A stretch of 64,000 nucleotides of DNA from an uncultured Methanosarcinales archaeon (GTDB lineage: Archaea > Nanobdellota > Nanobdellia > Woesearchaeales > CAIVOO01): contig CAZAIK010000002.1 in assembly GCA_964485195.1 (NCBI GenBank), positions 1-64,000 of the forward strand. Reading direction: 5' to 3'. Below, piece after piece: positions 12,301 through 32,508 of the stretch. The number at the start of each line of letters is the position of its first letter. Within the stretch, counting starts at the first letter, position 1. The position numbers were made by a program, and so were the translations under genes. The notes under the pieces were generated by a model, which saw only the letters and a program-made list of their open reading frames with translations, was not told where the DNA came from and did no database searches.

Positions 12301-13053
12301 AATTTCACTGTATTGGAGGAGGAAAAACTCCCCCCACCTTCTCCTGTATCAAGAAAAAAAGGGGTGAGCGTCAATCTCCCTCCCCTTATAGGCTCTTTTG
12401 AGAAAAACAGGACCAATGTTACTGCGGATGTTGAGGAAGTTGAAGTGGAAAGAATAACAGAACTGCCTTACACTCCTCTTGAAGTGAACCTTTCACTGAA
12501 TGAAACATACAAATTCAGGATTGAGGGAGAAATCCATAATGTTGCAATCAGAGATGTTTCACTCTCAAGCGCGGTGTTTGAATTCAGGTCTGAGCCCGTC
12601 TCCAAAGAGGTGTTTGTGAACACTGCAGAAGAATTTGACATAAATAATGACAGCGTAAATGAGGTTTCCGTTACCTTAAAGGAAATAACAGGCAACAACG
12701 TGACTTTTGACATCAACAGGATAGCGCCAACACCGCCTCCTGCTGCTGAGCCGGAAGGAGAGCCAGTGGAAGAAATGCCTGCAGAAGGCCTGACCCTTCA
12801 GAAAATACTGCCTCCTGCCTTCCTGGCAGGACTGCTGGTCGTACTTATTGTGCTGGCAGTCAGGCATCACAAGGCTCAGGCTGTTTATAAAAAACCTGAG
12901 GAAAGGCAGAGGGAAAAGCTTGTGGAAGAGATTGAAGAGTATGTCAAAGAGGCTGAGAGTGAAGGCTTTGCTGACGAGAAAATAAGGCAAAGGTTGCTTG
13001 AAGAGGGCTGGCCTGAAAATCTGGTGAATGAGGCTTTCAGAAAATCAAAGTAA
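6361..13053 (+). CDS. Giant (2230 aa) membrane-anchored surface glycoprotein: three parallel beta-helix (NosD/CASH-like) modules, many Ig-like repeats, C-terminal TM and cytoplasmic helical tail
   Basis: N-terminal hydrophobic signal; repeated GLHINASDITLDCAGY; very dense N-x-S/T sequons; TM LAGLLVVLIVLAV; GAGGTG SD before TTG. Confidence 0.9.
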   Translation: MSRKANAGILGAVAVGFALLLAVVSLNLDYTGFAAYGGDGSTDCGKSVNETSELEGDITDCPGVGLHINASDITLRCQGYSITHDSNPPPPSHFGINVSGFNNVTIKDCNIVGFYSGIYLSSTYNISLRNNNVTNNYHGGIVLKFANNTHITGGRFYNNSPDFIVDNTGESPFFFNMSHSVFDSPSGLLENYTELSIDDSILANRAYAVSWSNASGPLPEDHISFENKYVEIRLYDFSDPVSIDSVTWHWSEGGTPSYNPSKFELWAFEEDSWKLKNNSPGEGHIGLSNFNPQSIYGILQNNNLTCNSIVTSSATMDEDLINCTGVGLHINASDITLDCAGYWIRFNESLSPMLYQDIGINVSNKENITIKNCNVEGFSQGLYFRHTHNFTIINNTVFNSSDYGFDLFQSSNNSFINNSAHSSSQTTGFNFFDNCNNNIILNNSASGANGAGFDVADSANNTLYNNTAFSNSQGFHFLDAYNLKMDNNIAYNNTNDVRFYGFDSFGFNMTDMYFLNPAGSFDNYTRLSIEDFVGSSTQYYINWSANSSGLPYLRSSFANKFVDIVNYSGSVSIDSINWSWDESELSGYDESRFELWKYNSTNEWELLNDSPDTTNNVLGLSSLNPASTYGILQRSLLDCGDLVNENTVLEANLTNCSDVGLHINTSDVTLDCAGYHILFNKSLSPGSSDYAINVTGFDNVTVNNCNVKGFNYGFYLDSADNATLVNNTANNNTIGFQFSSSSRESVLINNSAVLNTQKGFYIAGYSHSASLINNSAFGNGRGIEIHDSVADLNGNKLYDNSYDLYVNFETIGQVFKMTNAFFLNPSGTLENYTVLDIYDSLNIGDEYFINWSVNSSALPANRESFANKFVDIVNTTGSISINKINWSWDESELSGYDESLFELWVYNSTNQWELLNDSPDTTNNVLGLSSLNPASTYGILQETLFVNLTVNITSPANNSVFNISDEFKVYANITNNGTGNATGCNASLSITNESVINITSTETFLHTLGNITAGNSTVETWNLTAELIGKVNITVNLSCDTNSSYDAVHNISVQDVSAPFLTVQEPVNDSWYGSDVMDLNFTVSDVYLDSCWFVNVTGQNETLMNCQNVSFTALEGNNNVTVYANDTSNNVNSSQVFFYVDSVSPVITVSSPVNNTNYTYTNIDLNFTVSDVSLDSCWFTNVTGQDIALSGCANVTFTALQGDNNVTVYANDSADNVNSSQVFFFVDSLPPIFDNANILPPADSEFNQTDTVRLQVNVSESSDVTANITWNSNSEIVNLSYNGTDWFYNSTFNNTFFVGLYNVTFNATDVFGNGNVSYTNFTVNDVTAPLVVNVTPEVGSNYTNGTAVDITANATDPFYNNLDVVQVNVTWAMGSFQGVMDNDSEIYNYTFTNTAGYLGVYNVTIIANDTSGNVNDTETTWFNITRINAAPVVILNKPDNNAQVNNTNNVTLNFTVTDEFNLTLICGLYVNGNLNQTNTSVQNNTITNFYVNVTLGGYNWSVNCSDGDLSNASGTRNFTVNDTVAPALAVQEPVNDSWYGSDVMDLNFTVSDVYLDSCWFVNVTGQNETLMNCQNVSFTALEGNNNVTVYANDTSNNVNSSQVFFYVDSVSPVITVSSPVNNTNYTYTNIDLNFTVSDVSLDSCWFTNVTGQDIALSGCANVTFTALQGDNNVTVYANDSADNVNSSQVFFFVDSIPPGVENVTNVSVTNETANISFDITENANGTVDYGTTLALGSSAFNQSFSTPLVVNLGGLLNNTLYYYNVTSCDVYGNCNESGVYDFTTLQNPDTTPPKVLSIIPSPGSQFNQTDIVTISVNLSEQSNVTATISWRSASMELNLPYNGTDWWYNNTFGNTTQPGLYNVTINMTDQVGNSNITSANFTVNDLTAPAVTIISPDKDEYDKDEKVLFSVNVTDAYYDSVDTVSANISLPNGSAISLSLVEDGNTQVFNNTFNNTKSAGLYNFTVLANDTSRNINVSSGNFTVLEEEKLPPPSPVSRKKGVSVNLPPLIGSFEKNRTNVTADVEEVEVERITELPYTPLEVNLSLNETYKFRIEGEIHNVAIRDVSLSSAVFEFRSEPVSKEVFVNTAEEFDINNDSVNEVSVTLKEITGNNVTFDINRIAPTPPPAAEPEGEPVEEMPAEGLTLQKILPPAFLAGLLVVLIVLAVRHHKAQAVYKKPEERQREKLVEEIEEYVKEAESEGFADEKIRQRLLEEGWPENLVNEAFRKSK
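8092..9177 (+). repeat. Patchy identical tracts between beta-helix modules 2 and 3 (8092-8133/9016-9057 and 8170-8253/9094-9177)
   Basis: 42-bp and 84-bp identical tracts at offset 924 within otherwise diverged modules. Confidence 0.85.
9550..10044 (+). repeat. 495-bp exact intragenic repeat, copy 1
   Basis: Identical to 10951-11445 (offset 1401 bp = 467 codons). Confidence 0.93.
10951..11445 (+). repeat. 495-bp exact intragenic repeat, copy 2
   Basis: Identical to 9550-10044. Confidence 0.93.
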
Positions 13054-18621: not shown

Positions 18622-18834
18622 TTATTTTTCTGTCCTTATGCACTGGACAGGGCATATGTCCACGGCGTCGCTTGCGCATTTCAAATCCTCAACTTCCAGC
18701 TCTTGGTTGTTTTCAACTTTCCTGGCTTCTTTTAATGTGATTATGTCACCTTCAAGCACAAAAAATTTCTCACAGGCCGCCTGACAAGCCCCGCAGCCAA
18801 TGCACTTATCTGTTTCCACTATTATCTTCGGCAT
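18622..18834 (-). CDS. Ferredoxin
   Basis: CIGCGAC...CPVQCI. Confidence 0.92.
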   Translation of the reverse strand: MPKIIVETDKCIGCGACQAACEKFFVLEGDIITLKEARKVENNQELEVEDLKCASDAVDICPVQCIRTEK

Positions 18835-19615
18835 TTTTGTATTGCACCTCTTTTTGTTTTCTATTAAAAATCACCGCCAATGCCAGCAGGGCAATGCCCA
18901 AAACCAGCATAGCTACCTGAATGTAAACCAGGTTCCTGAAAAACCCTGCGCTCGTGAAAATCTCCTGTATAGCAACCGAAGGAAGAATGCCTATACCTGA
19001 AATCAGGAACACATATCCGAAAGCACTGGCTTTCCTCACCCATCCTTCTGAAACAAGGAAAAGCAGGACTGCAAGGATGATATCTGTTATTATAAGGAAC
19101 CAGTGGTAAGTCCTGTATTTTTCACGGGACTGCCGGGCTATAAGCGCGGGGAATGTTTCTGTTTCAGCAAAACAGCTGAAAAATCCGCAGTCATATTCCT
19201 TGTAATAGATGGCATCATATATGGAGTTTGAAAGCAGTGCCCTGAAGGAAATCTCATCAACCTGCGAGCAGTCAATATCCAAGGGCTCCCTGGTTATGTT
19301 AAGCTCAACACTCTCCTTGTCTTCGCATTCCCTTCTCACATAAGTTTCCGCTCTCCTGAGGCTGTCCTCAGAGCTCTCTTTTTCAACCTGTTCCGCGATC
19401 ATCCCGGGAAAGAACTGCTTTCCTGTATCATAATCAGTGAAATTAAGAAAGATGTAGTTTCCAAAACTTAGGGCAATGGCAAGTACCAGCAAGAATCCCA
19501 CTAATCCTCTCAAAGCCATAAGGATGGTGTTTAACAGGGATTTAATAATCTTCTCATTAGGATTTGCAGATTCAGCTTTAAATGTGGATATATCATCCCT
19601 GTCAAATGGTAACAT
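18806..19615 (-). CDS. Membrane protein (4 TM, Cys-containing extracellular loop)
   Basis: Hydropathy pattern. Confidence 0.7.
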   Translation of the reverse strand: MLPFDRDDISTFKAESANPNEKIIKSLLNTILMALRGLVGFLLVLAIALSFGNYIFLNFTDYDTGKQFFPGMIAEQVEKESSEDSLRRAETYVRRECEDKESVELNITREPLDIDCSQVDEISFRALLSNSIYDAIYYKEYDCGFFSCFAETETFPALIARQSREKYRTYHWFLIITDIILAVLLFLVSEGWVRKASAFGYVFLISGIGILPSVAIQEIFTSAGFFRNLVYIQVAMLVLGIALLALAVIFNRKQKEVQYKNAEDNSGNR

Positions 19616-19932: not shown

Positions 19933-22518
19933 TTAACCGCATCCTTTTGGTGAGATCCAGCAGCAGTCGTTGTATTCACACCCCCCCATATTCACGACAT
20001 TGTAATGGGTGTTTCCGCATCCCGGGCAGGGCTTTTTTGGGAGTGCTGTATTCTCACCTTCAGAAGCAGAGGATTCCATAGCGACCGATCCTCCGTTGAG
20101 CTGCATTATCTGGTTGGACATAATCTCTGCCTTGGCTATCCTGTTATTGTAAGTTGTTATAAGGCCCCTGAGCATTAATGTTTCCATTTCTATCATCTTT
20201 TCTGCAAGCTCCCTGCTGAACTGGTCAAAGCCCATAAACCTGTCCAGCAGCAGGCTGTGCGCAAGCGCGTCTGAGACAGAGAAATTCTTTCCGAACTTGT
20301 CCTGGCCTATGCTCGGTCCCGGCGTTCCCAGAATGTCCTTTGCGATTTCGTGAGGGCTTTCCCCCTGCTGAAGCCTTCTTGAAGTGTGAATGGCATTGGT
20401 TGTGATTGCCTCGTAAGTGCCTGCAGCCCACCCCTTTGAGTTAAGGAAGGTTTCCCATACGAACCCGTCGCGATAAGCCAGAGTGACGTACAAGTGTTCG
20501 GTTTCAACAGGGTTATCTGAAACCGGCTCTCTTATAACCAAAGCAGGGAGAACCTTTCCCCTGCCAAGGTCTTTTCCATAAGTTATCTTTCTCAGCTCAT
20601 TAAGCTGCGCTTTCTTAAGCTCCAGCGAGTCTTCCTGTTTTCCCTCACCTATGTTTAACACCTGGTCCCTGGACTTGTCCCTGTAAACAGTAAGCCCCTT
20701 GCATCCCAGCTGATGCGCCAAATCATATGCCTGCCGAATGTCTTCAGGGGTTGCGTGTTCCGGAAAGTTAACTGTTTTTGAAACAGCATTGTCAGTATAT
20801 TTCTGGAATGCGGCCTGTATCTTGATGTGCCATTCAGGGGAAATGTCCAGGGCTGTCTTGAAAATGTCCTTTATCTCCTGGGGCGCTTCCTCTATTTCCT
20901 GCACAGTGCCTGTCTCTGCAATTTTTTTCATAAGCTCTTCACTGTAAAATTCTTTTTCCTTTGCAATTTCAACAAAATAAGGGTTCACTTCAGGCATTGG
21001 GTCGCCGTCAAGGACTTTTTTTCTCACAAAGGCTATGGCAAAGTAGGGCTCTATGCCGCTGGAAGCTCCTGCTATTATGCTGATTGTTCCTGTGGGAGCG
21101 ATGGTGGTGATGGTAGCATTTCTTACGGGCTTTTCGTTTCCTTCAGCAAAAACGCTTTGCTTGAAATTAGGGAAAGCTCCGTATTTTTTTGCCATCTCCT
21201 GGGATGCTTCCCGCCCCGCGGCGTATATTGTTTCCATTATCTTTTCGACGATTTCCAAAGCTTCTTCAGAATCATAGGGCATCCTTAGTTTAACCAGCAT
21301 GTCGGCAAATCCCATAACTCCCAGCCCTACCTTCCTGTTTCCCTTGGTCATTTCCCATATCTCGGGGAGAGGGTAGAAGTTTATGTCTATGACATCATTG
21401 AGGAACTCAACAGCCCTTTTTACCTGCTCAGCCAGTAATTTGTAATCAAATTCATTATTTTTAACTAATTTTATGAGGTTTATGGAGCCGAGATTGCACG
21501 ACTCATATGGAAGCAGCGGCTGTTCTCCGCACGGATTTGTGCTTTCAATCTTTCCTATTTTTCTGGTAGGATTCTTTTCATTGACCCTGTCAATAAAAAC
21601 AACTCCGGGCTCCCCATTTGTCCACGCGCCTGCCACTATCTTGTCCATCACCTCCTTTGCTTTCAGCTTCTCCACAACCTCTCCTGTCCGAGGATTGATC
21701 AGCTCATACTCTTCATCTTTCAATGCCTTGTTGTAAAAGTCCTCTGTTATCCCTATGGAAATGTTGAAGTTTTGGTTCTGCTTGCCGTCTTTTTTGCATT
21801 CAAGGAATTCAAGGATGTCAGGGTGGTCCACGTTAAGAATTCCCATATTCGCTCCCCTTCTGGTGCCTCCCTGCTTTATCTCTTCTGTGGCAGCGTCAAA
21901 CACCCTCATAAATGAGACAGGCCCTGAGGCGACCCCGTGAGTGGTTGAGACAAGGTCATTTCTCGGCCTTAGCCTGGAGAATGAGAAGCCAGTGCCTCCC
22001 CCGCTCTTGTGTATCAGGGCGGTATGCTTTATTGCCTTGAATATTCCTTCTGTGTTGTCTTCCACAGGCAGGACAAAACAGGCAGACAGCTGCCCTAAAT
22101 CCTTCCCTGCATTCATTAAGGTGGGAGAGTTTGGTATGAACTTTTTGGAGGCCATGCTTTCATAATATGACCTTGCCCTTTGATATATGGAATCCTCTGT
22201 TTCCTTTTCATCAACCACGGCCCTTCCCATTGCGATGTAAACCGCAACATTCCAAAGCCTTTCCTCAGGAGTTTCTACAATCTCTCCTTTCTGGTTTTTC
22301 TTGAGATATCTTTTTTCCAGAACGGTTTTTCCGTTTTCAGAAAGGTCAAATTTTATGTCAGGCCTGGGGCTGTTGACAAGATGATGATACTTTTCTATGA
22401 CTTTAAGCCTTTTCTCTTCATACTTGTTGAATTTCTCAGCAGTTTCAAGTTCTTTTTTCTGTTTTTCAATTCTTCCTTTCAAAACACCTCTTTGCTTTGT
22501 TACAATATCATTTCCCAT
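19933..22518 (-). CDS. nrdJ: Class II (B12-dependent) ribonucleotide reductase with TSCPD-like domain and C-terminal Cys-rich tail
   Basis: PNSPTLMNAG, QLSACFV, TNPCGEQ, IAPTGTIS, CKGLTVYRD. Confidence 0.95.
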   Translation of the reverse strand: MGNDIVTKQRGVLKGRIEKQKKELETAEKFNKYEEKRLKVIEKYHHLVNSPRPDIKFDLSENGKTVLEKRYLKKNQKGEIVETPEERLWNVAVYIAMGRAVVDEKETEDSIYQRARSYYESMASKKFIPNSPTLMNAGKDLGQLSACFVLPVEDNTEGIFKAIKHTALIHKSGGGTGFSFSRLRPRNDLVSTTHGVASGPVSFMRVFDAATEEIKQGGTRRGANMGILNVDHPDILEFLECKKDGKQNQNFNISIGITEDFYNKALKDEEYELINPRTGEVVEKLKAKEVMDKIVAGAWTNGEPGVVFIDRVNEKNPTRKIGKIESTNPCGEQPLLPYESCNLGSINLIKLVKNNEFDYKLLAEQVKRAVEFLNDVIDINFYPLPEIWEMTKGNRKVGLGVMGFADMLVKLRMPYDSEEALEIVEKIMETIYAAGREASQEMAKKYGAFPNFKQSVFAEGNEKPVRNATITTIAPTGTISIIAGASSGIEPYFAIAFVRKKVLDGDPMPEVNPYFVEIAKEKEFYSEELMKKIAETGTVQEIEEAPQEIKDIFKTALDISPEWHIKIQAAFQKYTDNAVSKTVNFPEHATPEDIRQAYDLAHQLGCKGLTVYRDKSRDQVLNIGEGKQEDSLELKKAQLNELRKITYGKDLGRGKVLPALVIREPVSDNPVETEHLYVTLAYRDGFVWETFLNSKGWAAGTYEAITTNAIHTSRRLQQGESPHEIAKDILGTPGPSIGQDKFGKNFSVSDALAHSLLLDRFMGFDQFSRELAEKMIEMETLMLRGLITTYNNRIAKAEIMSNQIMQLNGGSVAMESSASEGENTALPKKPCPGCGNTHYNVVNMGGCEYNDCCWISPKGCG

Positions 22519-22522
22519 TAAA

Positions 22523-22966
22523 TCACCTCTTCAAAGCTTTAACTTCCTTTTCAAATTCTTTTATGTCTTCAAACGAGCGGTAAACAGATGCGAATCTTAT
22601 GTATGCCACTTTGTCTATCATCCTTAGCTTTCTCATTACAATCTCCCCAATAACGTTGGAGCGTATTTCTTTTGATTTCCTTCCCTTTACCCTGTTTTCT
22701 ATGTCTGTAACAATTCTCTCAACTCTTTCCGGGCTTACCGCCCTTTTCTGGCAGGCAATTTTTATACCTTTGGTTAACTTTTCCCTTTGGTAAGGCTCTC
22801 TTTTCCCGTCTTTTTTTATCACACTTATGTCAAGCGATTCCGGTTTTTCATAGGTGGTAAACCGCTTGTTGCATTTAAGGCACTCCCTCCGCCTTCGCGC
22901 AACATCATTGATGTTTCTCTTGTCTATTACTTTGGTGCCAGTGCTGTTGCAGTAAATACATTTCAT
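22523..22966 (-). CDS. nrdR: Transcriptional repressor NrdR (Zn ribbon plus ATP cone)
   Basis: CIYC, RRRRECLKCNKRFTTYE, VIKKDG, DKVAYIRFASVY. Confidence 0.96.
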   Translation of the reverse strand: MKCIYCNSTGTKVIDKRNINDVARRRRECLKCNKRFTTYEKPESLDISVIKKDGKREPYQREKLTKGIKIACQKRAVSPERVERIVTDIENRVKGRKSKEIRSNVIGEIVMRKLRMIDKVAYIRFASVYRSFEDIKEFEKEVKALKR

Positions 22967-23018
22967 TTTCTGTAATTTGTGGTTGTGGAAAATCTCCCCG
23001 CCGAGACGTCATGTTATG

Positions 23019-23066
23019 TTACAATATGTTGGGGGTGCTTTGTAAAAATAGCCCAATATGTTGGAA
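23019..23066 (-). promoter_or_regulatory. Two tandem NrdR-box-like operators (23019-23034, 23051-23066) downstream of TATA box at 23086-23093
   Basis: ttaCAATATGTTGggg and gccCAATATGTTGgaa versus bacterial consensus acaCwAtATaTwGtgt; 32-bp spacing. Confidence 0.8.
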
Positions 23067-23295
23067 AAGAAGGATTATCAGAAGATATTTAAATATTCCT
23101 GTGTTTTAACATATATTAAAGAAAATTATTTTCAGTATTCGTTTACTATGAGAAAGTTAATTTAATCCTTGGAGCATTATAGTGTGAAAATGTTGTTAAA
23201 AGAAATATATTATCCAATCCCTATTTTTTACCTTAATGAACTTTAAATATCATCCTTCCTTAAACCCTTAAAGGCCGGAAAAAGAGGTGATAGCA

Positions 23296-23400
23296 TTGGT
23301 CAACGAAAAATTCAAAAAAATAAGTTATAATACCATTAAGAAGAACAAGACGCTCTCAATCTTCTTTTCTGATGAAAAAGAGACCAAACCAGCAGCTTAA
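23296..23400 (+). CDS. Putative 34-aa small protein
   Basis: GAGGTGA SD 5 nt before TTG; MVNEKFKKISYNTIKKNKTLSIFFSDEKETKPAA. Confidence 0.4.
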   Translation: MVNEKFKKISYNTIKKNKTLSIFFSDEKETKPAA

Positions 23401-24143
23401 CCCCTGAATTTAAGCTTGTTTCTTTTGATATAATCGCTTATCTCCTTGAGCACGCCCTGCCGGGTCATTTCGGGCGTGATAAGGCTGTCACAGTCTAAGT
23501 CAACAATTTCTGTGCCCTTGCTTTTCAAAAACAGCCTCCACTGCCCTTTTTTGTATCTGTCATCAATTTTCCGAAGGAAATCCTCTTTTTCAAAATCGCT
23601 ATTGTCCTTCTTTTCCCTTTTGTAAAGCCTCCTGTACGCGATTTCAGGGTCGATTTCCTGTACTACAACCAGGCCGGGAGCGTGGTGAAGGGCAAGAATA
23701 TTTCCCGGAAGGCTGGCAATGTCATTCACGCCTAACCTTTCCCTGTTGTCATTTGCCTGCACTGCCTGATAAACCAGAGAGCTTATTATTGACCTGTCCT
23801 GGAAAACAAACAGTTCTTTTTCCAACGCAGGAACCACAATCTTCTGGTAAAGCTCTTTCCTGTCCTCTGCAAATTTTTCAGCAACATATTTGGCAGAATG
23901 TTCAGGAAGCTTCGTGAGAATATCTTCTCTTAATTGCCTGCCGGTGTTGTGAAAAGTGGGTTCGCAGGTGAGGATGCACTGAACATCATTTAGCAGAGAA
24001 GGCTCTTTGCTTAAATCTGCCTCTTTTTTTCTTAAGTCCAGGAAACTTATTTTTGCCTCCTTCAGGTAATTTATTACACCATCAAATGCCACGCCCTTGC
24101 CACAGCCGTCAATCCCCTCTATGATTATGAATTTGCTATTCAT
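23397..24143 (-). CDS. tmk: Thymidylate kinase
   Basis: IEGIDGCGKG P-loop, EPT, DRSIISSLVYQ, FEKEDFL. Confidence 0.9.
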   Translation of the reverse strand: MNSKFIIIEGIDGCGKGVAFDGVINYLKEAKISFLDLRKKEADLSKEPSLLNDVQCILTCEPTFHNTGRQLREDILTKLPEHSAKYVAEKFAEDRKELYQKIVVPALEKELFVFQDRSIISSLVYQAVQANDNRERLGVNDIASLPGNILALHHAPGLVVVQEIDPEIAYRRLYKREKKDNSDFEKEDFLRKIDDRYKKGQWRLFLKSKGTEIVDLDCDSLITPEMTRQGVLKEISDYIKRNKLKFRG

Positions 24144-24144
24144 T

Positions 24145-25002
24145 TTACATGCCGGCAATTGTCTTGCTTACAATCTGCTCAGCCAATTCCCTGTCCTTGT
24201 TTATCACAACTTTTATGTCCATCTTTTTCTCAAAAACCTTCCTTATGAGATCAGGAACGTTGATGTCAGAAACATTATTTGCCTTTGAAAACGCATTGTG
24301 AAGCCTGGAGCTAAGTTCTGCGGGGATAAAAACCTGTATTACCATATCCCCAAAAACCAGCAGGTCAGAAGTTTCAGCGCACTTTACATTTGTCTTTGCC
24401 CTTACCCCGAGCTTTTTGTAGAATTGTGCGGCCCAAACATCTGTGGGTGTGGAATTTGCGCATAGCAGGAACATCCTGTGGCCCTTGCTGATTATCGTGG
24501 AAATCCAGTTATACTCAGCCCTCATGTAAAACAGAGGCCGCCATTCGTGATTGTGCTGCAACACTATGCTTGTTTTCTTGCTGGAGTTAAGCACGTAATG
24601 CTTCTGCAGGTAATAGAGATATTTTTCCACATCAAACCAGCTCTCAAAAGTCAATACCTGGAAATTGCCCTCAATCTTTGAATCTTTCACTCCCTCCAGG
24701 ACATTAACCCTGCTCTTAGTGTAATAGTTTGACTGGGTTATTTCAGTGTAATCGTGAATCTGCTTCAGCCAGTAAAGGTTCAGCTGGTACCCCTCTTCGT
24801 TTTTTGAGATTACGCCTTCTTTCAGAAGGTCCTGCACTGTCTTGTAAACTGCCTGATAAGTGGCCTTATAGCCGTATTTCTTTTTTATGACATTGTATAG
24901 CTTCTTGATGGTGAGCGGCCAGTCATAGCTCAATACAGAGATGACATAGTCCTTTGTGTTGCTGTTCTTGTCAAGCTGGGGAACGTAAAGATTCAGGGCC
25001 AT
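24145..25002 (-). CDS. Winged-helix transcriptional regulator with C-terminal effector-like domain
   Basis: LTIKKLYN...TYQAVYKTVQDLLKEGVI...YQLN. Confidence 0.7.
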   Translation of the reverse strand: MALNLYVPQLDKNSNTKDYVISVLSYDWPLTIKKLYNVIKKKYGYKATYQAVYKTVQDLLKEGVISKNEEGYQLNLYWLKQIHDYTEITQSNYYTKSRVNVLEGVKDSKIEGNFQVLTFESWFDVEKYLYYLQKHYVLNSSKKTSIVLQHNHEWRPLFYMRAEYNWISTIISKGHRMFLLCANSTPTDVWAAQFYKKLGVRAKTNVKCAETSDLLVFGDMVIQVFIPAELSSRLHNAFSKANNVSDINVPDLIRKVFEKKMDIKVVINKDRELAEQIVSKTIAGM

Positions 25003-25313: not shown

Positions 25314-28300
25314 TTACACCTGCTCAAACTTTATCTTTTTGAAATGTTTCCTGAGCTTTTCAGGAGCATCCTTAACTACCAGTACCCTTGGCCACAGTTT
25401 CTTGTTGGCAGCAACCACAAGCTTGGCCAGTTCTTCGTCAATCCTGAACTCATCCTTAACCTCCACAACCTTCCTGAAATCCTTCCTGCTGAGGTATATT
25501 GGCAGCAGCTCGTGAGGCCTGTCCTTGTCAGCAAATACCTTCTTGTATTTTTCCATAACATCCTTTGTTACATAAAGCCGCCTGTAATCATTAATCCTGT
25601 CCCGGTCCAAAAGCTTTTTGACTGCCTCATCCTTGGCAAAGGTCCTTCTTCCAAGGAAAAAGATGGGGAGAAATGTTGCCAATAAAACAAGGGGTATCAG
25701 GCCCCAGAGCATTACCCTTCTTGAAGTGGCTTCATTATTTCCATTTGCTGTAAGTGGCTGAGGGGATTCCAGCACAGATGTGACTCTCTTGTTTGATTCT
25801 TCTCTTCTGGTTGCTTCCACAACCTCCTTGACAACAACTTCCTCCTCTTCATCTGCTTCTTCAGGGGACTCGTTGTTTTTTTGCTGCGGGGGTATTACAG
25901 GACTGCTTCCCCCACCCCCTCCTGAACCTCCTCCGCTGCTTCCTCCCGAGTTATAGCATCCTTCGTAAGTGCAGGATGCAGAGCAGGACAAAATGCCTGA
26001 ATCATATCCGAGTGAAGCGCAGCTTTCCCCTTTCAGGTCGCTGCCGTCGCAATCTTCTGTTCCCAAGGCTATGTTATCCCCGCAATATTGAACTGAGAAA
26101 TTCCTTGTTTCTGAAGCTGTAGCATATTCCCCATCAGAGCAATTGACAAGCCAGGAATGATAGCCTCCTGTTACATTAATGACAAATTCGGTAAGGGTGT
26201 TGTTCTGAACTGACTGGTTTGTTTTGTTCAGGATTCCATCAATGTAGATGGAGCAGTTTAATGTTAAATTGTCATCCGTCACGGTGAAATTAAAAGTGAC
26301 AGGAGTCTCGTTATCTGCCGAAACAATAACAGAATTGTTATCAGGCTTTTCAAGGTTAACTTCAGGGGGAACATTTAGCAGGAAGATGATGGGGGTGTCT
26401 GTCAGCAACCCAATGTCCTGCTGCGGATTGACTGAGATGTTGTAACTGTCATCCTTGTTGCTGCCATTCCACGTCAGGTTGGGATTAATTATTCCGTTAT
26501 TGTCTGAAACACCGCTAAACAAAATATCAGTGCCATTGCTTATGTTTATTGTTCTGTTAGCCACAGGAGTGCCATTAGTGTAATTTACATAGACTGGGTA
26601 GTATCTGTTTAATCCCGGTGTTCCAAAGGCTATAGTGATAACGTCAGGCATATCAACGTGCCCTCGCATTATAGGCTTTGAAAACTGTCTCCAAACCATT
26701 TCATCAGTAATATTTGACTGCGGCGATTCAAAATTAATCTCTGAGTTTTCATAAATATCTAATATTCTGAGAGTTATATTGTAGGAGCGGGTTAAAGCAT
26801 TACCTGAAGTCTGCAGGGTCTGGTTAATAATTACATTACTTATTGAATTGTTTGAATCTTCAGAAATTATCAAATCCTGCCAAATAATAACATTCTCTAT
26901 TTTATTGCTGGAATTATCATTTAATTCTAGATTGCCGAAGAAAGTTGAATTATATACTTCGTTTGAAGAGTTTTCATTCAATGTTAAAGTAAAATAAAAG
27001 TTTGAACCTGTCACAATATTCGGTTTATTCCCCGATAAATAAACTTGGGAATTATTTGTTGTTAAATTATAGAGATTATTAACGCCATAAGTTTTAATGT
27101 TAAATCTATTGGCTTTTCCAATAACATAAGAGTCAGATATTGTTAAAAAAGCACTTTCATTGATTATTATATCTTTTGGACTGCTTGCTTCATCCAATAT
27201 AAGACTGCTTAAGTTCAAAATAAAAGTGGCATTCGGCCCCACTGTTAATGTCTGGTTTTGGAAGTAAAGGTTCTCATTCTCGCACGCTACTGTTACGTTG
27301 CCTGTTATGTTCCAGTCGATGTTTGGGGGCGGAAGTCCGCACCCTGGCAGTACTGTTATGTCATCGGACAAGTTTAATGTTTCAAATCCTGTGTCGTTGC
27401 AGGTGACATTGTAAAAATACAGGTCCGCGATTGTGAAATTCCTTATATACCTGAACAGATTGTTGTCATAATTCATCAGCCCGCTGTTTCCGTCGCTGAA
27501 GCTTATGTTGCAGGTAGCGGTGCTTATGGGGGCTCCCGAGCTTCTGTTTGTATAGTTCGCAAAAAATGAAACATTCTCGCGCGTATACCTTATTGTTCCG
27601 TTGTCAACATCGTCAAATATGTTCAGCTGCGAATTTTCTCCTGCTGTGTAATTTGAGAATCCTGTAACGGAGAACGTCAGGTTATTGTCTTCATAACTTA
27701 TTACGCTGCAGTCCTGGCATTCGTTCCCGTCTTTCAAAATAATGGGGGTTTTGTTGAATGAAAGGCTGTAAAATGTTATGTTTGCAGAAATGTTCAGGCT
27801 GCTGTACTTTGTGCTGTTCAGCCCTATAAAATTCTTTCCCACTATGAAGGATGTTGAAGCGGAGCTTAAGTTTACGCTTCCATTGAATTTTATTTTCACG
27901 TTTCCGTTCCTGTCGCTCACTGAATTGTCTGTTTCATTAATATTCATTATCAGGTTGATTGAAGCAAGAATGTCAAGCCTGGGGAAAGTGTAATTCAGTA
28001 CTGAAATGGACTTCCCCCCGTTGACCAGCAGCGTCTTGACCTCTCCGGGTGTTAAGTCTGCATTGTTGACCAGCCTGCTGTACTGCCTTAGCAGGGCAGC
28101 AGCTCCGGCCAAGTGAGGGGCGGCCATGGAAGTGCCTGCCTTGTCTGAAACTCCAGAATCGTCTTTCGCGGATGTTATTATGGCTCCGGGAGCGAGAGTG
28201 TCAAGTATTGGTGCCATATTTGTAAAGCAGGCTACCTGATCAACTGCTGATGTTGTATCTGAACAGGAGGAGTATCCCACACTCCCAACATCAGCATCGT

Positions 28301-29399
28301 AGGTTGCGCCCACGGAGGTGCAGTTTTGAATGCAGGCAGGGGCTGAGATGTTGTTGATTTGCGCGTCATTTCCCGATGCAGCAACCACGAAAATTCCCAA
28401 GTCGTTTGCGTTGTTTATTGAAGGGGAAAATGTCTCGTTATAGCTGTCATCGCATTCAGAATCGTACAATCCACCTCCAAGGCTCATTGTAATCACCGAA
28501 ATATTGAAATTGGAAGCGTTTGCAGTGCACCAGTCTATTCCCGCTATTATGTCGGCCAGGGGGCATCCTGCTCCGCACACCCTTAATGCGGTTATTGTCG
28601 CGCCAGGGGCCATTCCCTTCACAGTCCCGTTTCCTGCCACAATACCTGCCACGTGGGTGCCGTGGCCGTTCTCGTCCATAGGGTCGTTATCGTCGCTGTA
28701 AAAATCATAACCTGCTATGACTTTTGAGCAGTTGCCTGCCAAAAATGTTTCATTGGTGCACCCTCCCAGGCTTTCGTGCTGGTAATTAACCCCTGAGTCT
28801 ATAACACATATTGTTTCTCCAACGCCAGTTATGTTCATTCCTGAAACCTGTATGCCGTGGACTGCGGTTGCGTTCACCACATCCCTTGATTCATCAAGGA
28901 AAAGCTCAAACTCCCTGTTCTTGATAATCCTTTTAACATTGGGGTTTCTTTTGAGCTTTTCAAGACCTCCCTTGGAAATGTTCCCCGAGATTGCGCTCAC
29001 AGTTGAATACCTGTGCTTCAGCTTCAAATCCGGCTTTTCATCTTCAGAAACGAAAAGACCTGTTATCAGATTCTTTGCCCTGTTTATTGTCCTGTTGCCT
29101 TTCTCATAACTTACGCTCTCAAGCACTTCTTCCTGAACCTTCCTGATTTTTTCCTTTTTTATCTCTATTTTCTTCCCGCCATTCTTTTCAGACTTTAATT
29201 CGTAATCTTCAGGCTCATCCAGGACAATTATAACGTCAGCAAAATCCTTTTCTTCCAATTCTTCAAGAACTTCTTCATCTACCTCTGCAGAAGCCAGAAC
29301 AACAAAACCGGTGAAAGCTGGGTTTACAAGGACAAAAACGAACAATACCACGATCGCTATGATAAGGTAAGTCAGACGAACTCTGTTTATAAGGGGCAT
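25314..29399 (-). CDS. Membrane-anchored subtilisin-like (S8) serine protease with surface modules
   Basis: I9-like prodomain; VIDSG, HGTHVAG, AASGN, GTSMAAPH triad motifs; Gly/Ser linker; C-terminal TM. Confidence 0.93.
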   Translation of the reverse strand: MPLINRVRLTYLIIAIVVLFVFVLVNPAFTGFVVLASAEVDEEVLEELEEKDFADVIIVLDEPEDYELKSEKNGGKKIEIKKEKIRKVQEEVLESVSYEKGNRTINRAKNLITGLFVSEDEKPDLKLKHRYSTVSAISGNISKGGLEKLKRNPNVKRIIKNREFELFLDESRDVVNATAVHGIQVSGMNITGVGETICVIDSGVNYQHESLGGCTNETFLAGNCSKVIAGYDFYSDDNDPMDENGHGTHVAGIVAGNGTVKGMAPGATITALRVCGAGCPLADIIAGIDWCTANASNFNISVITMSLGGGLYDSECDDSYNETFSPSINNANDLGIFVVAASGNDAQINNISAPACIQNCTSVGATYDADVGSVGYSSCSDTTSAVDQVACFTNMAPILDTLAPGAIITSAKDDSGVSDKAGTSMAAPHLAGAAALLRQYSRLVNNADLTPGEVKTLLVNGGKSISVLNYTFPRLDILASINLIMNINETDNSVSDRNGNVKIKFNGSVNLSSASTSFIVGKNFIGLNSTKYSSLNISANITFYSLSFNKTPIILKDGNECQDCSVISYEDNNLTFSVTGFSNYTAGENSQLNIFDDVDNGTIRYTRENVSFFANYTNRSSGAPISTATCNISFSDGNSGLMNYDNNLFRYIRNFTIADLYFYNVTCNDTGFETLNLSDDITVLPGCGLPPPNIDWNITGNVTVACENENLYFQNQTLTVGPNATFILNLSSLILDEASSPKDIIINESAFLTISDSYVIGKANRFNIKTYGVNNLYNLTTNNSQVYLSGNKPNIVTGSNFYFTLTLNENSSNEVYNSTFFGNLELNDNSSNKIENVIIWQDLIISEDSNNSISNVIINQTLQTSGNALTRSYNITLRILDIYENSEINFESPQSNITDEMVWRQFSKPIMRGHVDMPDVITIAFGTPGLNRYYPVYVNYTNGTPVANRTINISNGTDILFSGVSDNNGIINPNLTWNGSNKDDSYNISVNPQQDIGLLTDTPIIFLLNVPPEVNLEKPDNNSVIVSADNETPVTFNFTVTDDNLTLNCSIYIDGILNKTNQSVQNNTLTEFVINVTGGYHSWLVNCSDGEYATASETRNFSVQYCGDNIALGTEDCDGSDLKGESCASLGYDSGILSCSASCTYEGCYNSGGSSGGGSGGGGGSSPVIPPQQKNNESPEEADEEEEVVVKEVVEATRREESNKRVTSVLESPQPLTANGNNEATSRRVMLWGLIPLVLLATFLPIFFLGRRTFAKDEAVKKLLDRDRINDYRRLYVTKDVMEKYKKVFADKDRPHELLPIYLSRKDFRKVVEVKDEFRIDEELAKLVVAANKKLWPRVLVVKDAPEKLRKHFKKIKFEQV

Positions 29400-29439: not shown

Positions 29440-32415
29440 TTATGTAAATCCGCAAACATCTTTTAATTTGTATAGGAAATCGGAAATCTCACCTTCAAAA
29501 ACTGAAGCTGTGCTGGAATACACGGGCTTTATCCTGGGCCTGCTCATACTGCCACAATCCTTATTGATATTAGCATCTAAACAAGAGGCTTGTGAGTCTG
29601 TTAATGGGGGTTCGAAATCATCTAAAGGAGATATGTATTCATAGCCAGCTCTTATTGTCCCATCGTCAAATCCATCTACATAAAGTGAAAAAGCATCACA
29701 GCCTGGCTCGTTAATATCCTGATAATAATCTTCCTGCCAGAAGTAAACACTTTTATCCTGACCCAGGACCCATGCAATATCATAAGCTTCCTCCTCTGTT
29801 ACAAACACAGAGATATTAGCATATGTTTCATTTGTGTTTCCTCTCAGGTCTGTCGCTGTCAGCTTGGCTTTGTGCTCTTTTGCAACGTCATAAATCCTTT
29901 GCATTGAATCATTGCTGCTGTTGAACGGTTCTTTATCGTAAGTTACGTTCCACATGTGCTGGTTGGTGCCTCCGCAGTTTGAGTAATCAACGTCATTGTC
30001 TGTTATGCCATCCCCGCTTGTGTCCACTTCAATGTCCTGGTCCATCGTCACGTTGATGTTGCAGTAGACAAAGTCCTGCTCCCACATCAGGTAGAAGTAC
30101 CCTTCCTTGTCCTTTACTGTGTTCTCCTCATCCACAGACTTGTACCACAAGTCTATGGTTTCATTTGAGTACATTGTTATGTTTTCTGAGCTTATGTCCA
30201 GGATTGTCTGCAGTGAGGGGGTGTTGCCTGAATCGTTTATGAAGAAAGTCCCTATCATATGCATTTTTCCCCACCTTATGTTGTCGTAAACGTGGATGTC
30301 ATATCTTCCATCGTCCCATTCGCAGGGAACCCTGAACGTGAATTCCTTGTCATATTTCTGCCCGTCGGCAGGCAAGAACAGGGTTTCATTGGGGTTGTTA
30401 ACGTCAGAGCAGTACACTATCCCATCCTCGTTTATTATCCCTGAGACATTGTCGCACACGTGCCTGTTGTCTGTGGGGACACCTGTGAGGGTGTGGTTTT
30501 CAACTGCGAATGTTATGTTCACATCTGTTGTGCCCACGTTTATTCCAAACATGGTGAACTCAACATACTGGTTGCAGGTGTAGAAATTGCCGTGCTCGTA
30601 CTTACCGTTATGAAGTATGTGCCCTTGCACATTAAAATCATTATCGGAGTCGTAGCTGTCATTCTTAAATACATCTGAATTATGCCCCCTGCCGTTGTTC
30701 GTCCTGTTGGTGAAAATGTTGAAGTCCTTTTTCTTTGAGCCCTGCAACACTATATGCCATATTGTGTTTTCAGGCAAATAAGCTTCATAATATCCATTGC
30801 TGTCTATTGTTGTGTCTGGAGTGGGTTTTGGCTCCAGTGCATCGGTGTCTGTTTTATTTAATGTCACGTCATATTCAGTCACTTCATAAAACGAGATGTT
30901 AACACTTGAGACTGCGTTGCCTATCTCATCATAAATCGTTCCGTTAATCAGTGTTGTGTTTGCAGTGCAGTATGCTTCAGCAGTTCCCTTGTTCAGGCAG
31001 GTGCTTTGGTTTCCACAGTCATCGTCAGTCAGGCACGCACTGCTGTTAACTAAGTATAATGCATCAACATAGCCGTAAATTACCTGGTGATACTTGCTTT
31101 CCGTGTTGTTATACCATCTCTTGCTCCAGCCGTCAATTATCCAGTTGTGGGTTGCGTTTGAAGTGTTGAACTCTCCCATGAATACTGAATGGTTTTTTAA
31201 TTCCGGATATCTGGTGAGGTTCAGTTTTAGTGTTTCATACTCCGCGTCGATTATCAAGGGTCCCCAGTTATTAATTGTTGTATCGTGATGAGTGCCCCGT
31301 TCAACACTTGCAAGGCTGAGATTCCTTGTCCTGTTGGTGATTATGATTTCATTCTGCATAACATTGGTCATATCAACTTTAAACTGGGTTATGTTCCTCT
31401 CAGTTCCGTTAAGGATGGCAAAGGCCGTGTAGGAAGGGTTCCAGTATTCCAATACAATCTGGTGGCTTCCATCGTATGGGAATGAAGGATCTGACGAACT
31501 TAATGTTGCGTTTCCCCACATCATTGTTATGCCGTTGAAGGTTTCCTGGTCTTCCTTTGTTGTTGCAAAGAAAATCCCATCCAGCTCCATAGTGCCAACA
31601 ATGCCTGTGCCGTTTGTTATGTTGAAGTCAAAAATGCCTTTTTCCAGCCATCTTCTCCAGCAGTCATCCCCCTGGCAGGTGGTATTCGGGCCTGTGTGGC
31701 TGTCAAGGAACCTTGGCTGCCTTAGCAAATCATAATGTGTTTTGTTGGCTCCGTAAAACCTGAACCTTGCGAATAATGTTCCGTTTGCAGGGTTGATCTG
31801 CCCCGTTGTTGAGTAATTGGTAAAGTGGGGGACCTCAAAAACAACCTTTCCCCCTGAATTATCTATCAGGCTGCAGTCATTGCATATTTCATTGTTTCTG
31901 AGTATTAGAGGAGGGTGGGAGTAGTCAATGTTTAGCGTTAGTGTTGCTGGGATGTTAAGGTCCAATGAGTCTGACTCCACGCTGATGAAATTATGGGATA
32001 TTTTCATTTCAAGTTCACTGAAATCAACAGCTTCGCTGAATTCAATCCTTCCGTAATCATTTTCAAAGACTTTCTGCGTGCTGCTCTCCTCATCATTTCC
32101 ATAAGAAGAGCTTGAGCTTCCTGACGAACTGCCTGAAGAGCTTGAGCCTGTGATGGGAAGCATTCCCGCTCTTTTGTTTTCCCCGTCATCCTGGATTTCT
32201 TCTTTAGGATAGTGTATTTCAATAATCTCGGGCTCTTCTTCCTCTATAACTTCTGGGCTGATATTGCCCTCCTGAGCCTGCATCACTGAGACGGAATCCC
32301 CTATTACAAGGTCTTCAGAATCCCAATTGACATTATTGAGTCCCAGCAAAACAAAGGATATGCCCAGGACTATGACAGACATTACAACTATTCCGATTGG
32401 AAAACCTTTATTCAT
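29440..32415 (-). CDS. Large surface/secreted glycoprotein (~990 aa)
   Basis: N-terminal TM, Ser-rich linker, FEVPHFTNY module, DTSGDGITDND Ca-binding/PKD-like motif. Confidence 0.8.
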   Translation of the reverse strand: MNKGFPIGIVVMSVIVLGISFVLLGLNNVNWDSEDLVIGDSVSVMQAQEGNISPEVIEEEEPEIIEIHYPKEEIQDDGENKRAGMLPITGSSSSGSSSGSSSSSYGNDEESSTQKVFENDYGRIEFSEAVDFSELEMKISHNFISVESDSLDLNIPATLTLNIDYSHPPLILRNNEICNDCSLIDNSGGKVVFEVPHFTNYSTTGQINPANGTLFARFRFYGANKTHYDLLRQPRFLDSHTGPNTTCQGDDCWRRWLEKGIFDFNITNGTGIVGTMELDGIFFATTKEDQETFNGITMMWGNATLSSSDPSFPYDGSHQIVLEYWNPSYTAFAILNGTERNITQFKVDMTNVMQNEIIITNRTRNLSLASVERGTHHDTTINNWGPLIIDAEYETLKLNLTRYPELKNHSVFMGEFNTSNATHNWIIDGWSKRWYNNTESKYHQVIYGYVDALYLVNSSACLTDDDCGNQSTCLNKGTAEAYCTANTTLINGTIYDEIGNAVSSVNISFYEVTEYDVTLNKTDTDALEPKPTPDTTIDSNGYYEAYLPENTIWHIVLQGSKKKDFNIFTNRTNNGRGHNSDVFKNDSYDSDNDFNVQGHILHNGKYEHGNFYTCNQYVEFTMFGINVGTTDVNITFAVENHTLTGVPTDNRHVCDNVSGIINEDGIVYCSDVNNPNETLFLPADGQKYDKEFTFRVPCEWDDGRYDIHVYDNIRWGKMHMIGTFFINDSGNTPSLQTILDISSENITMYSNETIDLWYKSVDEENTVKDKEGYFYLMWEQDFVYCNINVTMDQDIEVDTSGDGITDNDVDYSNCGGTNQHMWNVTYDKEPFNSSNDSMQRIYDVAKEHKAKLTATDLRGNTNETYANISVFVTEEEAYDIAWVLGQDKSVYFWQEDYYQDINEPGCDAFSLYVDGFDDGTIRAGYEYISPLDDFEPPLTDSQASCLDANINKDCGSMSRPRIKPVYSSTASVFEGEISDFLYKLKDVCGFT

Positions 32416-32508
32416 ATCCACCCCTTGGACTGTTGAGCTAAGAGCTTTTTTTATAAAAAGCTTTGCAAAACAAGACCAAAAGCTTTATAAAGCGAATTTT
32501 GGCAGTGC

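What the first reader, a model, noticed from the sequence alone, without database searches (positions are those of the whole stretch)
22523..23100. Bacterial-type NrdR switch on an archaeal promoter: tandem NrdR boxes over the predicted start site of nrdR-nrdJ
Seen: full-length nrdR lies 4 nt upstream of nrdJ. Upstream are two copies of CAATATGTTGG (boxes 23019-23034 and 23051-23066, 32 bp apart) and a TTTAAATA box at 23086-23093 on the coding strand, which places the predicted TSS in or beside the distal box. Known: bacterial NrdR binds tandem acaCwAtATaTwGtgt boxes usually about three helical turns apart and senses dATP/ATP. NrdR homologs occur in some archaea, but I know of no characterised archaeal operator. 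Inference: an autoregulated dNTP-sensing repressor blocking TBP/TFB-recruited RNA polymerase. This NrdJ has no recognisable ATP cone, so overall activity control may be transcriptional.
Basis: partly seen in the sequence, partly recalled or inferred. Interest (0 to 1): 0.78.

Follow-up and report, generated by a model that had tools for sequence, protein, structure and literature searches.

The report
NrdR operator on an archaeal promoter
A tiny DPANN-type archaeon carries the nucleotide-sensing repressor NrdR with two genuine NrdR binding boxes just behind the TATA box of its own nrdR-nrdJ operon; the site is real and conserved, but it is one more example of a system already reported in some archaea.

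Summary
nrdR (22966..22523, minus strand) ends 4 nt before nrdJ. Two identical 11-mers lie 32 bp apart at the stated coordinates, and TTTAAATA lies 19 nt upstream of the distal box.

Both boxes carry all six published conserved NrdR-box positions, with a 16-bp linker. They are the only such pair in the 1.13-Mb genome.

The genome is archaeal and sits in an order that holds Woesearchaeota genomes. NrdR was found in 48 of 61 genomes searched in that order. 28 of 48 nrdR loci have tandem boxes 31-33 bp apart, including 26 of 30 loci where an RNR gene follows nrdR. A TATA box usually lies 16-22 nt upstream of box 1.

Eight of nine NrdR-less relatives with RNR genes lack box pairs. The protein keeps the bacterial DNA-reading residues and most of the nucleotide-site residues.

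Best reading: an autoregulated, dATP/ATP-sensing repressor that covers the start site and blocks RNA polymerase.

New here: a second NrdJ paralogue has an ATP-cone and no boxes. The boxed one has no ATP-cone.

NrdR in archaea is already in print, and this scan found the same layout before in other DPANN genomes. No binding or start-site data exist. Verdict: a new member of a known kind, of moderate interest.

The parts
22523..22966 (-). nrdR, 147 aa: Zn-ribbon (C3, C6, C29, C32) plus ATP-cone
   Evidence: TIGR00244 176.1 bits against a cut-off of 124.65; PF22811 58.6 bits and PF03477 79 bits. Aligns over residues 1-145 with solved bacterial NrdRs: 9fxk E 1.5e-38, 7p37 E 2.5e-27.
19933..22518 (-). 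nrdJ (class II, B12-dependent ribonucleotide reductase), 861 aa, no ATP-cone; starts 4 nt after the nrdR stop
   Evidence: NF006417 968.3 bits (cut-off 961) and TIGR02504 714 bits. Pfam finds only Ribonuc_red_lgN and lgC.
23051..23066 (-). NrdR box 1 (distal), TTCCAACATATTGGGC; predicted to cover the transcription start
   Evidence: C4, A6, A8, T9, T11 and G13 are all present (against PMC13584703 section 7). PWM 12.3 bits, 7th best of the genome.
23035..23050 (-). 16-bp linker between the boxes
   Evidence: Start-to-start distance is 32 bp. The published linker length is 15-16 bp (PMC13584703 abstract).
23019..23034 (-). NrdR box 2 (proximal), CCCCAACATATTGTAA; 52 nt before the nrdR ATG
   Evidence: All six conserved positions are present. 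PWM 15.0 bits, joint best of the genome.
23086..23093 (-). TATA box TTTAAATA, 19 nt upstream of box 1
   Evidence: An exact TTTWWAWA lies within 50 nt upstream of box 1 in 20 of 28 relatives' operators, against a mean of 3.1 in shuffles.
23058..23066 (-). Predicted transcription start zone (inferred, not mapped)
   Evidence: Inference from the recalled rule that an archaeal TATA box is centred about 26-27 nt before the start. No RNA data were available.
23397..24158 (-). Neighbouring dTMP kinase gene (tmk), same strand, 430 nt upstream of nrdR
   Evidence: TIGR00041 92.4 bits (cut-off 83.25). tmk also lies upstream of nrdR in L047 and L049.

Best explanation
This is a functional, autoregulated NrdR operator placed on an archaeal core promoter. 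TBP/TFB would bind the TTTAAATA box. The two NrdR boxes lie 19 nt further down and cover roughly -3 to +13 and +30 to +45.

When dATP rises relative to ATP, NrdR is expected to switch to its DNA-binding tetramer, as shown for the bacterial protein. One Zn-ribbon pair would sit on each box, three helical turns apart, and kink the DNA. That would block recruitment of RNA polymerase or promoter opening at nrdR-nrdJ.

Shown here:
- gene identities;
- box sequence and spacing;
- uniqueness of the pair in the genome;
- conservation of boxes and of TATA phasing in relatives;
- co-occurrence of boxes with NrdR;
- conservation of DNA- and nucleotide-contact residues.

Inferred: the start site, actual binding, the nucleotide response, and repression rather than some other effect.
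For: 1. Published box criteria are met in both boxes (C4, A6, A8, T9, T11, G13; 16-bp linker): against PMC13584703 sections 3 and 7.
2. It is the only pair in 1.13 Mb. The motif is depleted elsewhere: 64 sites of 9 bits or more, against 133-164 in shuffled genomes.
3. In the window plus 47 relatives of the same order, strict cores occur at 3.76 per kb in the 250 nt before nrdR and at 0.33 per kb elsewhere. 17 of 20 successive spacings are 31-33 bp.
4. PWM pairs occur in 28 of 48 loci. That is 26 of 30 loci where an RNR gene follows nrdR and 2 of 18 where none does.
5. The relatives' consensus is aCACwAyATrTwGTGt.
6. An exact TTTWWAWA lies within 50 nt upstream of box 1 in 20 of 28 loci (shuffle mean 3.1, maximum 9 in 1000). 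The gap is 16-22 nt in 12 of them and 9 nt in 4.
7. Boxes also precede RNR genes not placed after nrdR. G052 has a pair on another contig. G011 has a pair before nrdD, which there lies upstream of nrdR. G028 has one strong box 82 kb from nrdR.
8. Of 10 NrdR-less relatives, 9 yielded RNR loci (58,528 nt) and 8 of those 9 have no pair.
9. D15, R17, the RRRR motif and R35 align with the S. coelicolor DNA contacts D15, R17, R26-29 and R37. K51, E57, K63, Q73, F125, V128 and Y129 align with its nucleotide-site residues (residue roles from PMC9110341, passages read).
Against: - No binding, start-site or expression data exist.
- The window's boxes are weak members of the family: 12.3 and 15.0 bits against up to 22 in relatives. 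They lack most of the outer ACA/TGT arms. Nine single sites of 12 bits or more exist in the genome.
- My PWM was trained on the same upstream regions it was counted on. Only the strict literature pattern and the spacing are independent of that.
- The second nrdJ of this genome has no boxes. The bioRxiv preprint 10.1101/2025.03.28.645925 (passage read) says NrdR-encoding species have sites before all RNR operons.
- G058 has a textbook pair but no NrdR was found in its 95%-complete assembly.
- The two RNR loci of G009 show no box.
- G031 has NrdR but no RNR gene was found.
- S. coelicolor K69 aligns with I70 here, and R51 with K52.
Confidence: 0.85

Rival explanations
1. The boxes do bind NrdR, but the outcome on an archaeal promoter differs from simple block of polymerase recruitment. 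For example, box 2 at about +30 to +45 could act as an elongation roadblock, or the site could mainly set nrdR autoregulation with little effect on nrdJ.
For: Box 2 lies well inside the transcribed leader, 52 nt before the ATG. In 4 of the 20 loci with an exact TATA the gap is only 9 nt, so the geometry is not uniform. No archaeal transcription data were found in the library for NrdR.
Against: Box 1 covers the predicted start in both gap classes. nrdJ starts 4 nt after nrdR with no room for its own promoter, so both genes share one fate.
Confidence: 0.08
2. The boxes are an inert relic that travelled with a bacterial nrdR-nrdJ cassette and no longer act as an operator.
For: NrdR is mainly bacterial. 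Haloarchaeal nrdR-nrdAB modules came by transfer (PMC3019208, passages read). Bacterial NrdRs are 46-57% identical to the window's, about as close as most archaeal relatives.
Against: The same-genus relative (L042) has diverged throughout the intergenic region but keeps two boxes, the 32-bp spacing and the same 19-nt TATA gap. The layout recurs in 28 of 48 loci drawn from a sample of the order that spans 55 families. GC content here (0.433) shows no anomaly. Woesearchaeal NrdRs mostly group together in the tree.
Confidence: 0.04
3. The palindromes are bound by a different, unidentified archaeal regulator, and NrdR is coincidental.
For: G058 has perfect boxes while no NrdR was found. Earlier scan notes describe other palindromic operators at archaeal nrdD promoters that are not NrdR boxes (e1-919999, e1-5393020; not tested here).
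Against: The motif equals the bacterial NrdR box at all six key positions and in its spacing. The base-reading residues D15 and R17 are kept. Eight of nine NrdR-less relatives lack pairs.
Confidence: 0.03

Closest known systems
Streptomyces coelicolor nrdRJ operon with its NrdR operator (PDB 7P37/7P3F; PMC9110341)
   Same: nrdR is co-transcribed with a class II RNR. Two 16-bp boxes lie about three helical turns apart over the start site. D15, R17, the RRRR motif and most nucleotide-site residues align.
   Different: The promoter is an archaeal TATA box, not sigma-70 -35/-10 elements. The protein has 147 aa and lacks the C-terminal tail (the solved chain has 195 aa), and has a 2-residue deletion after position 21. 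K69 aligns with I70. The outer arms of the boxes are degenerate.
Escherichia coli-type NrdR (PDB 9FXK, 9GEX, 9FVR, 9FZF; PMC12176259)
   Same: These are the best solved sequence matches, E 1.4e-38 to 4.1e-38 over residues 1-145. The tandem-box logic is the same.
   Different: E. coli NrdR controls three RNR operons and nrdR is not in an RNR operon there (PMC12176259 abstract and introduction passages). Here only one of two RNR genes has boxes.
Haloarchaeal nrdR-nrdB-nrdA / nrdR-nrdA-nrdB modules (PMC3019208, Tables 2 and 3 as read)
   Same: nrdR sits directly before an RNR operon in an archaeon.
   Different: Those are class I RNRs judged to be recent bacterial imports, one of them plasmid-borne. 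Here it is a class II RNR in a DPANN lineage where NrdR is a majority trait. I did not examine haloarchaeal boxes.
Archaeal repressors that bind downstream of TATA and block polymerase recruitment (MDR1, LrpA, Phr; recalled, no call)
   Same: The operator overlaps the start site and leaves the TATA/BRE free.
   Different: They belong to unrelated protein families (metal-, amino-acid- or heat-responsive). None has a Zn-ribbon/ATP-cone architecture or senses dATP.

Membership tests
NrdR repressor (TIGR00244) | Equivalog HMM score above the curated cut-off | tested here: met
   176.1 bits against 124.65.
NrdR repressor (TIGR00244) | N-terminal Zn-ribbon with two CxxC motifs | tested here: met
   PF22811 58.6 bits. 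C3, C6, C29 and C32 are invariant in 48 sequences.
NrdR repressor (TIGR00244) | ATP-cone domain | tested here: met
   PF03477 79 bits, residues 48-134.
NrdR repressor (TIGR00244) | DNA-reading residues D15 and R17, plus backbone arginines (R12, R26-29, R37 in S. coelicolor) | tested here: met
   D15, R17, R24-27 and R35 align with them; R12 is K12 here (residue roles from PMC9110341).
NrdR repressor (TIGR00244) | Residues of the two nucleotide sites (K50, R51, E56, K62, K69, Q72, F124, V127, Y128 in S. coelicolor) | tested here: inconclusive
   Seven are identical (K51, E57, K63, Q73, F125, V128, Y129). R51 is K52 and K69 is I70 (residue roles).
NrdR repressor (TIGR00244) | dATP/ATP-dependent oligomer switch and DNA binding | not testable with these tools
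   Needs purified protein.
Tandem NrdR-box operator | 16-bp partly palindromic box with C4, A6, A8, T9, T11, G13 | tested here: met
   Both boxes carry all six (criteria from PMC13584703 section 7).
Tandem NrdR-box operator | Two boxes separated by a 15-16 bp linker | tested here: met
   16 bp.
Tandem NrdR-box operator | Lies in an RNR promoter and overlaps the polymerase binding site or start site | tested here: inconclusive
   It lies 19 nt behind a conserved TATA box. The start site is not mapped and no RNA run was listed.
Tandem NrdR-box operator | Conserved before orthologous operons | tested here: met
   28 of 48 loci, and 26 of 30 nrdR-RNR operons.
Tandem NrdR-box operator | Present only where NrdR is encoded | tested here: met
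   8 of 9 NrdR-less relatives with RNR loci have no pair. The exception is G058.
Tandem NrdR-box operator | Sites before all RNR operons of the genome (as stated for bacteria in 10.1101/2025.03.28.645925) | tested here: not met
   The second nrdJ (contig C5) has no box; the best score near it is 7.9 bits about 1 kb away.

The most novel reading that the evidence does not exclude
NrdR with its operator is not a sporadic bacterial import. It is an old, largely vertically kept, majority trait of the Nanoarchaeota-type DPANN phylum. Its operator has been re-phased onto the archaeal core promoter, with box 1 fixed about 18 bp behind TATA, over the start site.

In this genome the system divides dNTP control between two NrdJ paralogues. 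One is controlled only at transcription (NrdR boxes, no ATP-cone). The other is controlled only allosterically (ATP-cone, no boxes).

If binding and repression were shown, NrdR would be a nucleotide-sensing repressor that works on both bacterial and archaeal transcription machineries.
Probability: 0.5. Interest if true: 0.55.

Novelty: new member of a known kind. Interest (0 to 1): 0.4.

Why it matters
NrdR has been studied experimentally only in bacteria, as far as the papers I read show. Its published box surveys name bacterial genomes only (methods of PMC12051234 and PMC13584703) or aimed to cover more bacterial phyla (PMC9110341).

This site, with its conserved relatives, gives a concrete and testable archaeal operator. 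Its geometry relative to TATA is defined: about 18 bp behind it, over the predicted start.

It also offers a natural contrast within one genome. One RNR paralogue has NrdR boxes and no ATP-cone. The other has an ATP-cone and no boxes. That bears on how transcriptional and allosteric dNTP control share the work.

For uncultured DPANN archaea it is one of the few regulatory circuits that can be read straight from sequence.

Tried and rejected
- The 16-mer consensus ACACWATATATWGTGT with up to 3 mismatches gave 0 hits in the window. The window's boxes match the core, not the arms.
- The published permissive regular expression gives 88 pairs in this genome and 17 pairs outside promoters in the relatives' loci. 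I dropped it as a test and used the six-position core instead.
- RNA evidence: no RNA holder was listed. Two DNA runs of one study hold the stretch and may be its source.
- Leader structure: the 107-nt stretch from box 1 to the ATG folds no better than shuffles (z = +0.81).
- Rfam at gathering threshold finds only the SSU rRNA in the window. No tRNA was found.
- The NrdR tree is poorly resolved: 13 of 124 branches have strong support. I draw no donor or direction of transfer from it.
- The 2026 MMBR review on NrdR (PMC13602944) is not held. It may already describe archaeal distribution or boxes.
- The search (NrdR, NrdD, fused) gave 13 papers. I saw only the listing and did not read them for fusions.
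- The neighbourhood look-up of earlier scan notes returned nothing for this place.

Full report
**Observation**

On the minus strand the region reads TTTAAATA (23093..23086), then 19 nt, then TTCCAACATATTGGGC (23066..23051). A 16-nt linker follows, then CCCCAACATATTGTAA (23034..23019), 52 nt, and the nrdR ATG at 22966. The exact 11-mer CCAACATATTG occurs twice in the window, only here, 32 bp apart. nrdR (147 aa) ends at 22523 and nrdJ (861 aa) starts at 22518.

**Genes and organism**

- nrdR passes the NrdR equivalog model (TIGR00244, 176.1 bits against 124.65). It has Zn_ribbon_NrdR plus ATP-cone.
- nrdJ passes NF006417 (968.3 bits against 961) and has no ATP-cone hit.
- A dTMP kinase gene lies 430 nt upstream on the same strand.
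- The window starts inside an archaeal SSU rRNA gene.
- The genome has 1,126,147 bases in 32 contigs and is 99.47% complete.
- One relative of the same order (G009, locus L008) carries an NrdR identical to that of a public record titled Candidatus Woesearchaeota archaeon (L067). Other close records are titled Pacearchaeota and Nanobdellati. The host is therefore a DPANN archaeon of the Woesearchaeota kind.
- GC content around the operon (0.433) is like the rest of the window.

**Is it an NrdR operator by published criteria?**

PMC13584703 (sections 3, 7, 8 and 12 read) defines two 16-bp boxes 15-16 bp apart. [quoted passage not shown]

- Both boxes here carry all six, and the linker is 16 bp.
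- With the strict core C.A.AT.T.G the genome holds 102 cores, against 341 expected from base composition. Exactly one pair lies 33 bp or less apart, and it is this one. The only other pair within 100 bp is 80 bp apart.
- A PWM built from relatives ranks the two boxes joint first (15.0 bits) and seventh (12.3 bits) in the genome.
- The motif is depleted genome-wide: 64 sites of 9 bits or more, against 133-164 in five shuffled genomes.
- A relaxed pair scan (31-33 bp apart, both boxes at least 5 bits, one at least 10) returns this site alone.
- The published permissive regular expression is too loose for this AT-rich genome, giving 88 pairs.

**Relatives**

NrdR was found above cut-off in 48 of 61 genomes searched in the same order, counting this one. 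I took all 47 relatives' loci.

- An iterated palindromic PWM converged on aCACwAyATrTwGTGt, which is the bacterial NrdR-box consensus.
- PWM hits of 8 bits or more number 63 in the 11,966 nt before nrdR (5.3 per kb) and 28 in the other 148,378 nt (0.19 per kb). This count is circular, because the PWM was trained on those same regions.
- The literature-derived strict core is not circular. It gives 3.76 per kb upstream against 0.33 per kb elsewhere. 17 of 48 loci have a pair 30-33 bp apart, and 17 of 20 successive spacings are 31-33 bp.
- With PWM pairs (31-33 bp apart, both at least 5 bits, one at least 11), 28 of 48 loci have an operator within 520 nt upstream of nrdR.

The gene after nrdR in the 47 relatives:

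| Gene after nrdR | Relatives |
|---|---|
| nrdD | 15 |
| class I/II RNR | 14 |
| something else | 10 |
| no ORF found by my rule | 8 |

Operators are present in 26 of the 30 loci where an RNR gene follows nrdR (15 of 15 nrdD, 11 of 15 class I/II). They are present in 2 of the other 18 loci. The boxes therefore follow the RNR operon, not nrdR as such.

**Promoter geometry**

- An exact TTTWWAWA lies within 50 nt upstream of box 1 in 20 of 28 operators. Shuffles of the same segments give a mean of 3.1 and at most 9 in 1000 trials.
- A control window 60-110 nt upstream has it in 3 of 28, and the operator itself in 1 of 28.
- The gap from TATA to box 1 is 16-22 nt in 12 of the 20 and 9 nt in 4. 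The window and its same-genus relative both have 19 nt.
- By the recalled rule that archaeal TATA boxes are centred about 26-27 nt before the start, the start falls inside box 1 in both classes. The TATA/BRE stays free. The expected action is a block of polymerase recruitment or promoter opening, not of TBP/TFB binding. That is how the recalled archaeal repressors MDR1, LrpA and Phr work.

**Co-occurrence tests**

I checked five genomes whose nrdR is not followed by an RNR gene:

- G052 has a pair (19.5 and 13.6 bits, 32 bp apart) before an RNR gene on another contig.
- G011 has a pair (14.6 and 20.8 bits) before nrdD, which there lies upstream of nrdR.
- G028 has one strong box (21.7 bits) before an RNR gene 82 kb from nrdR.
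- G009 shows none at two RNR loci.
- G031 has no RNR gene that I could find.

I also checked ten relatives without NrdR (completeness 90-100%). Nine yielded RNR loci (58,528 nt). Eight of those nine have no pair. G058 has a textbook pair (20.0 and 19.0 bits) and a further strong box. Its assembly is 95% complete, so nrdR may simply be unassembled, but that is not shown.

**Protein**

The window's NrdR aligns end to end with solved bacterial NrdRs. Residue roles come from PMC9110341 (passages read).

| Role in S. coelicolor NrdR | S. coelicolor residues | Window residues |
|---|---|---|
| Base reading | D15, R17 | D15, R17 |
| Backbone contacts | R12, R26-29, R37 | K12, R24-27, R35 |
| Nucleotide sites, kept | K50, E56, K62, Q72, F124, V127, Y128 | K51, E57, K63, Q73, F125, V128, Y129 |
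| Nucleotide sites, changed | R51, K69 | K52, I70 |

The four cysteines and R17 are invariant in all 48 archaeal sequences.

**Regulon in this genome**

No nrdD was found. A second nrdJ lies on contig C5 (692 aa, 54% identical to the first). It has an N-terminal ATP-cone (84.9 bits), and a cobA-type corrinoid adenosyltransferase gene lies next to it. No box lies near it; the best score is 7.9 bits about 1 kb away.

So the paralogue without an ATP-cone has the NrdR operator, and the paralogue with an ATP-cone has none. It does not generalise: 19 of 29 RNRs that follow nrdR in relatives have an ATP-cone.

**Distribution and descent**

In an even sample of the phylum, 221 of 301 genomes have NrdR above cut-off. 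This tally includes this genome and two unpublished genomes, G277 and G278, both positive.

A tree of 128 NrdRs (149 columns) is weakly resolved, with 13 of 124 branches strongly supported. The archaeal rows lie mostly together. Three bacterial rows fall among them (Poribacteria, Gottesmanbacteria, Patescibacteria), and five archaeal rows fall in the mainly bacterial part. Strongly supported branches do not exclude a single origin. I infer no donor.

**What is in print**

- It is said to occur in 22% of archaeal genomes (PMC13584703 Importance).
- It is said to control 'a few archaeal RNRs' (PMC12051234 introduction).
- Haloarchaeal nrdR-nrdAB modules are listed in PMC3019208 (passages read).
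- One preprint still says it is absent from archaea (10.1101/2025.03.28.645925, passages read).
- The box surveys of PMC12051234 and PMC13584703 name bacterial genomes only in their methods. The PMC9110341 survey searched GTDB species genomes and says it was iterated to cover more bacterial phyla.
- Searches for NrdR with DPANN, Nanoarchaeota or Woesearchae, and for the phrase 'archaeal NrdR', returned no paper. NrdR with 'TATA box' returned two papers whose listed titles look unrelated; I did not read them.
- The 2026 MMBR review on NrdR is not held and may cover this.

**This scan has seen it before**

Earlier notes describe the same layout on other DNA, in Woesearchaeota and Micrarchaeota genomes: e1-701610, e1-698990, e1-902408, e1-5262166 and e1-1201258. 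I reached the same reading from my own calls before I looked at them.

**Verdict**

This is a real, conserved NrdR operator on an archaeal promoter. It is very likely functional as an autoregulated dNTP-sensing switch. It is a new member of a known kind. The split between a boxed, cone-less NrdJ and an unboxed, cone-bearing NrdJ is the only feature particular to this genome.

Noticed in passing
L147:719-3211 (-) and L148:723-3236 (+), relatives G132 and G069; not in the window: In one genus of the same order the only NrdR is fused in one open frame to the anaerobic reductase NrdD: Zn_ribbon_NrdR + ATP-cone (2 stretches) + NRDD, 830 and 837 aa. Six genomes (G195, G132, G184, G069, G180, G328) show open frames of 778-854 aa at the NrdR match. 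Before the L147 gene lie TTTATATA and two boxes 32 bp apart. I found no report of such a fusion, but I saw only a search listing.
   Followed up: partly
G000 contig C5, L056:916-2994 (-): A second nrdJ paralogue (692 aa, 54% identical) has an N-terminal ATP-cone, a cobA-type adenosyltransferase gene next to it, and no NrdR box.
   Followed up: yes
G058:C66:10094-10140 and G058:C22:5030: A relative in which no NrdR was found (95% complete) has a textbook tandem operator before its RNR gene. It also has a strong single box next to a small NRDD C-terminal fragment.
   Followed up: partly
G031 (one contig, about 0.8 Mb, 99% complete): It encodes NrdR (197 bits), but neither PF13597 nor PF02867 finds an RNR gene. 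This may be an NrdR without a ribonucleotide reductase.
   Followed up: no
L028:3-1484 (-) and L053:1951-3429 (+): In one relative the RNR after nrdR begins with a thioredoxin domain. In another it carries a LAGLIDADG domain, which suggests an intein.
   Followed up: no
L058/L059 (G011:C1:6227-8004): nrdD matches the NRDD profile in two separate frames: positions 1-532, then 531-562 in a 50-aa open frame. The glycyl-radical end may be split off or frameshifted. In this genome nrdD lies upstream of nrdR.
   Followed up: no
window 6361-13053 (+), 25314-29399 (-), 29440-32421 (-): Very long ORFs of 2230, 1361 and 993 aa. The 1361-aa one has a subtilase S8 domain. ORFs 24145-25002 (-) and 18806-19615 (-), which flank the operon region, match no Pfam or NCBIfam family.
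   Followed up: no
L041, L037, L044, L047, L049: nrdR in relatives often sits beside other nucleotide-metabolism genes: dUTPase (L041), AAA_18-type kinases (L037, L044), and tmk upstream (L047, L049, as in the window).
   Followed up: no
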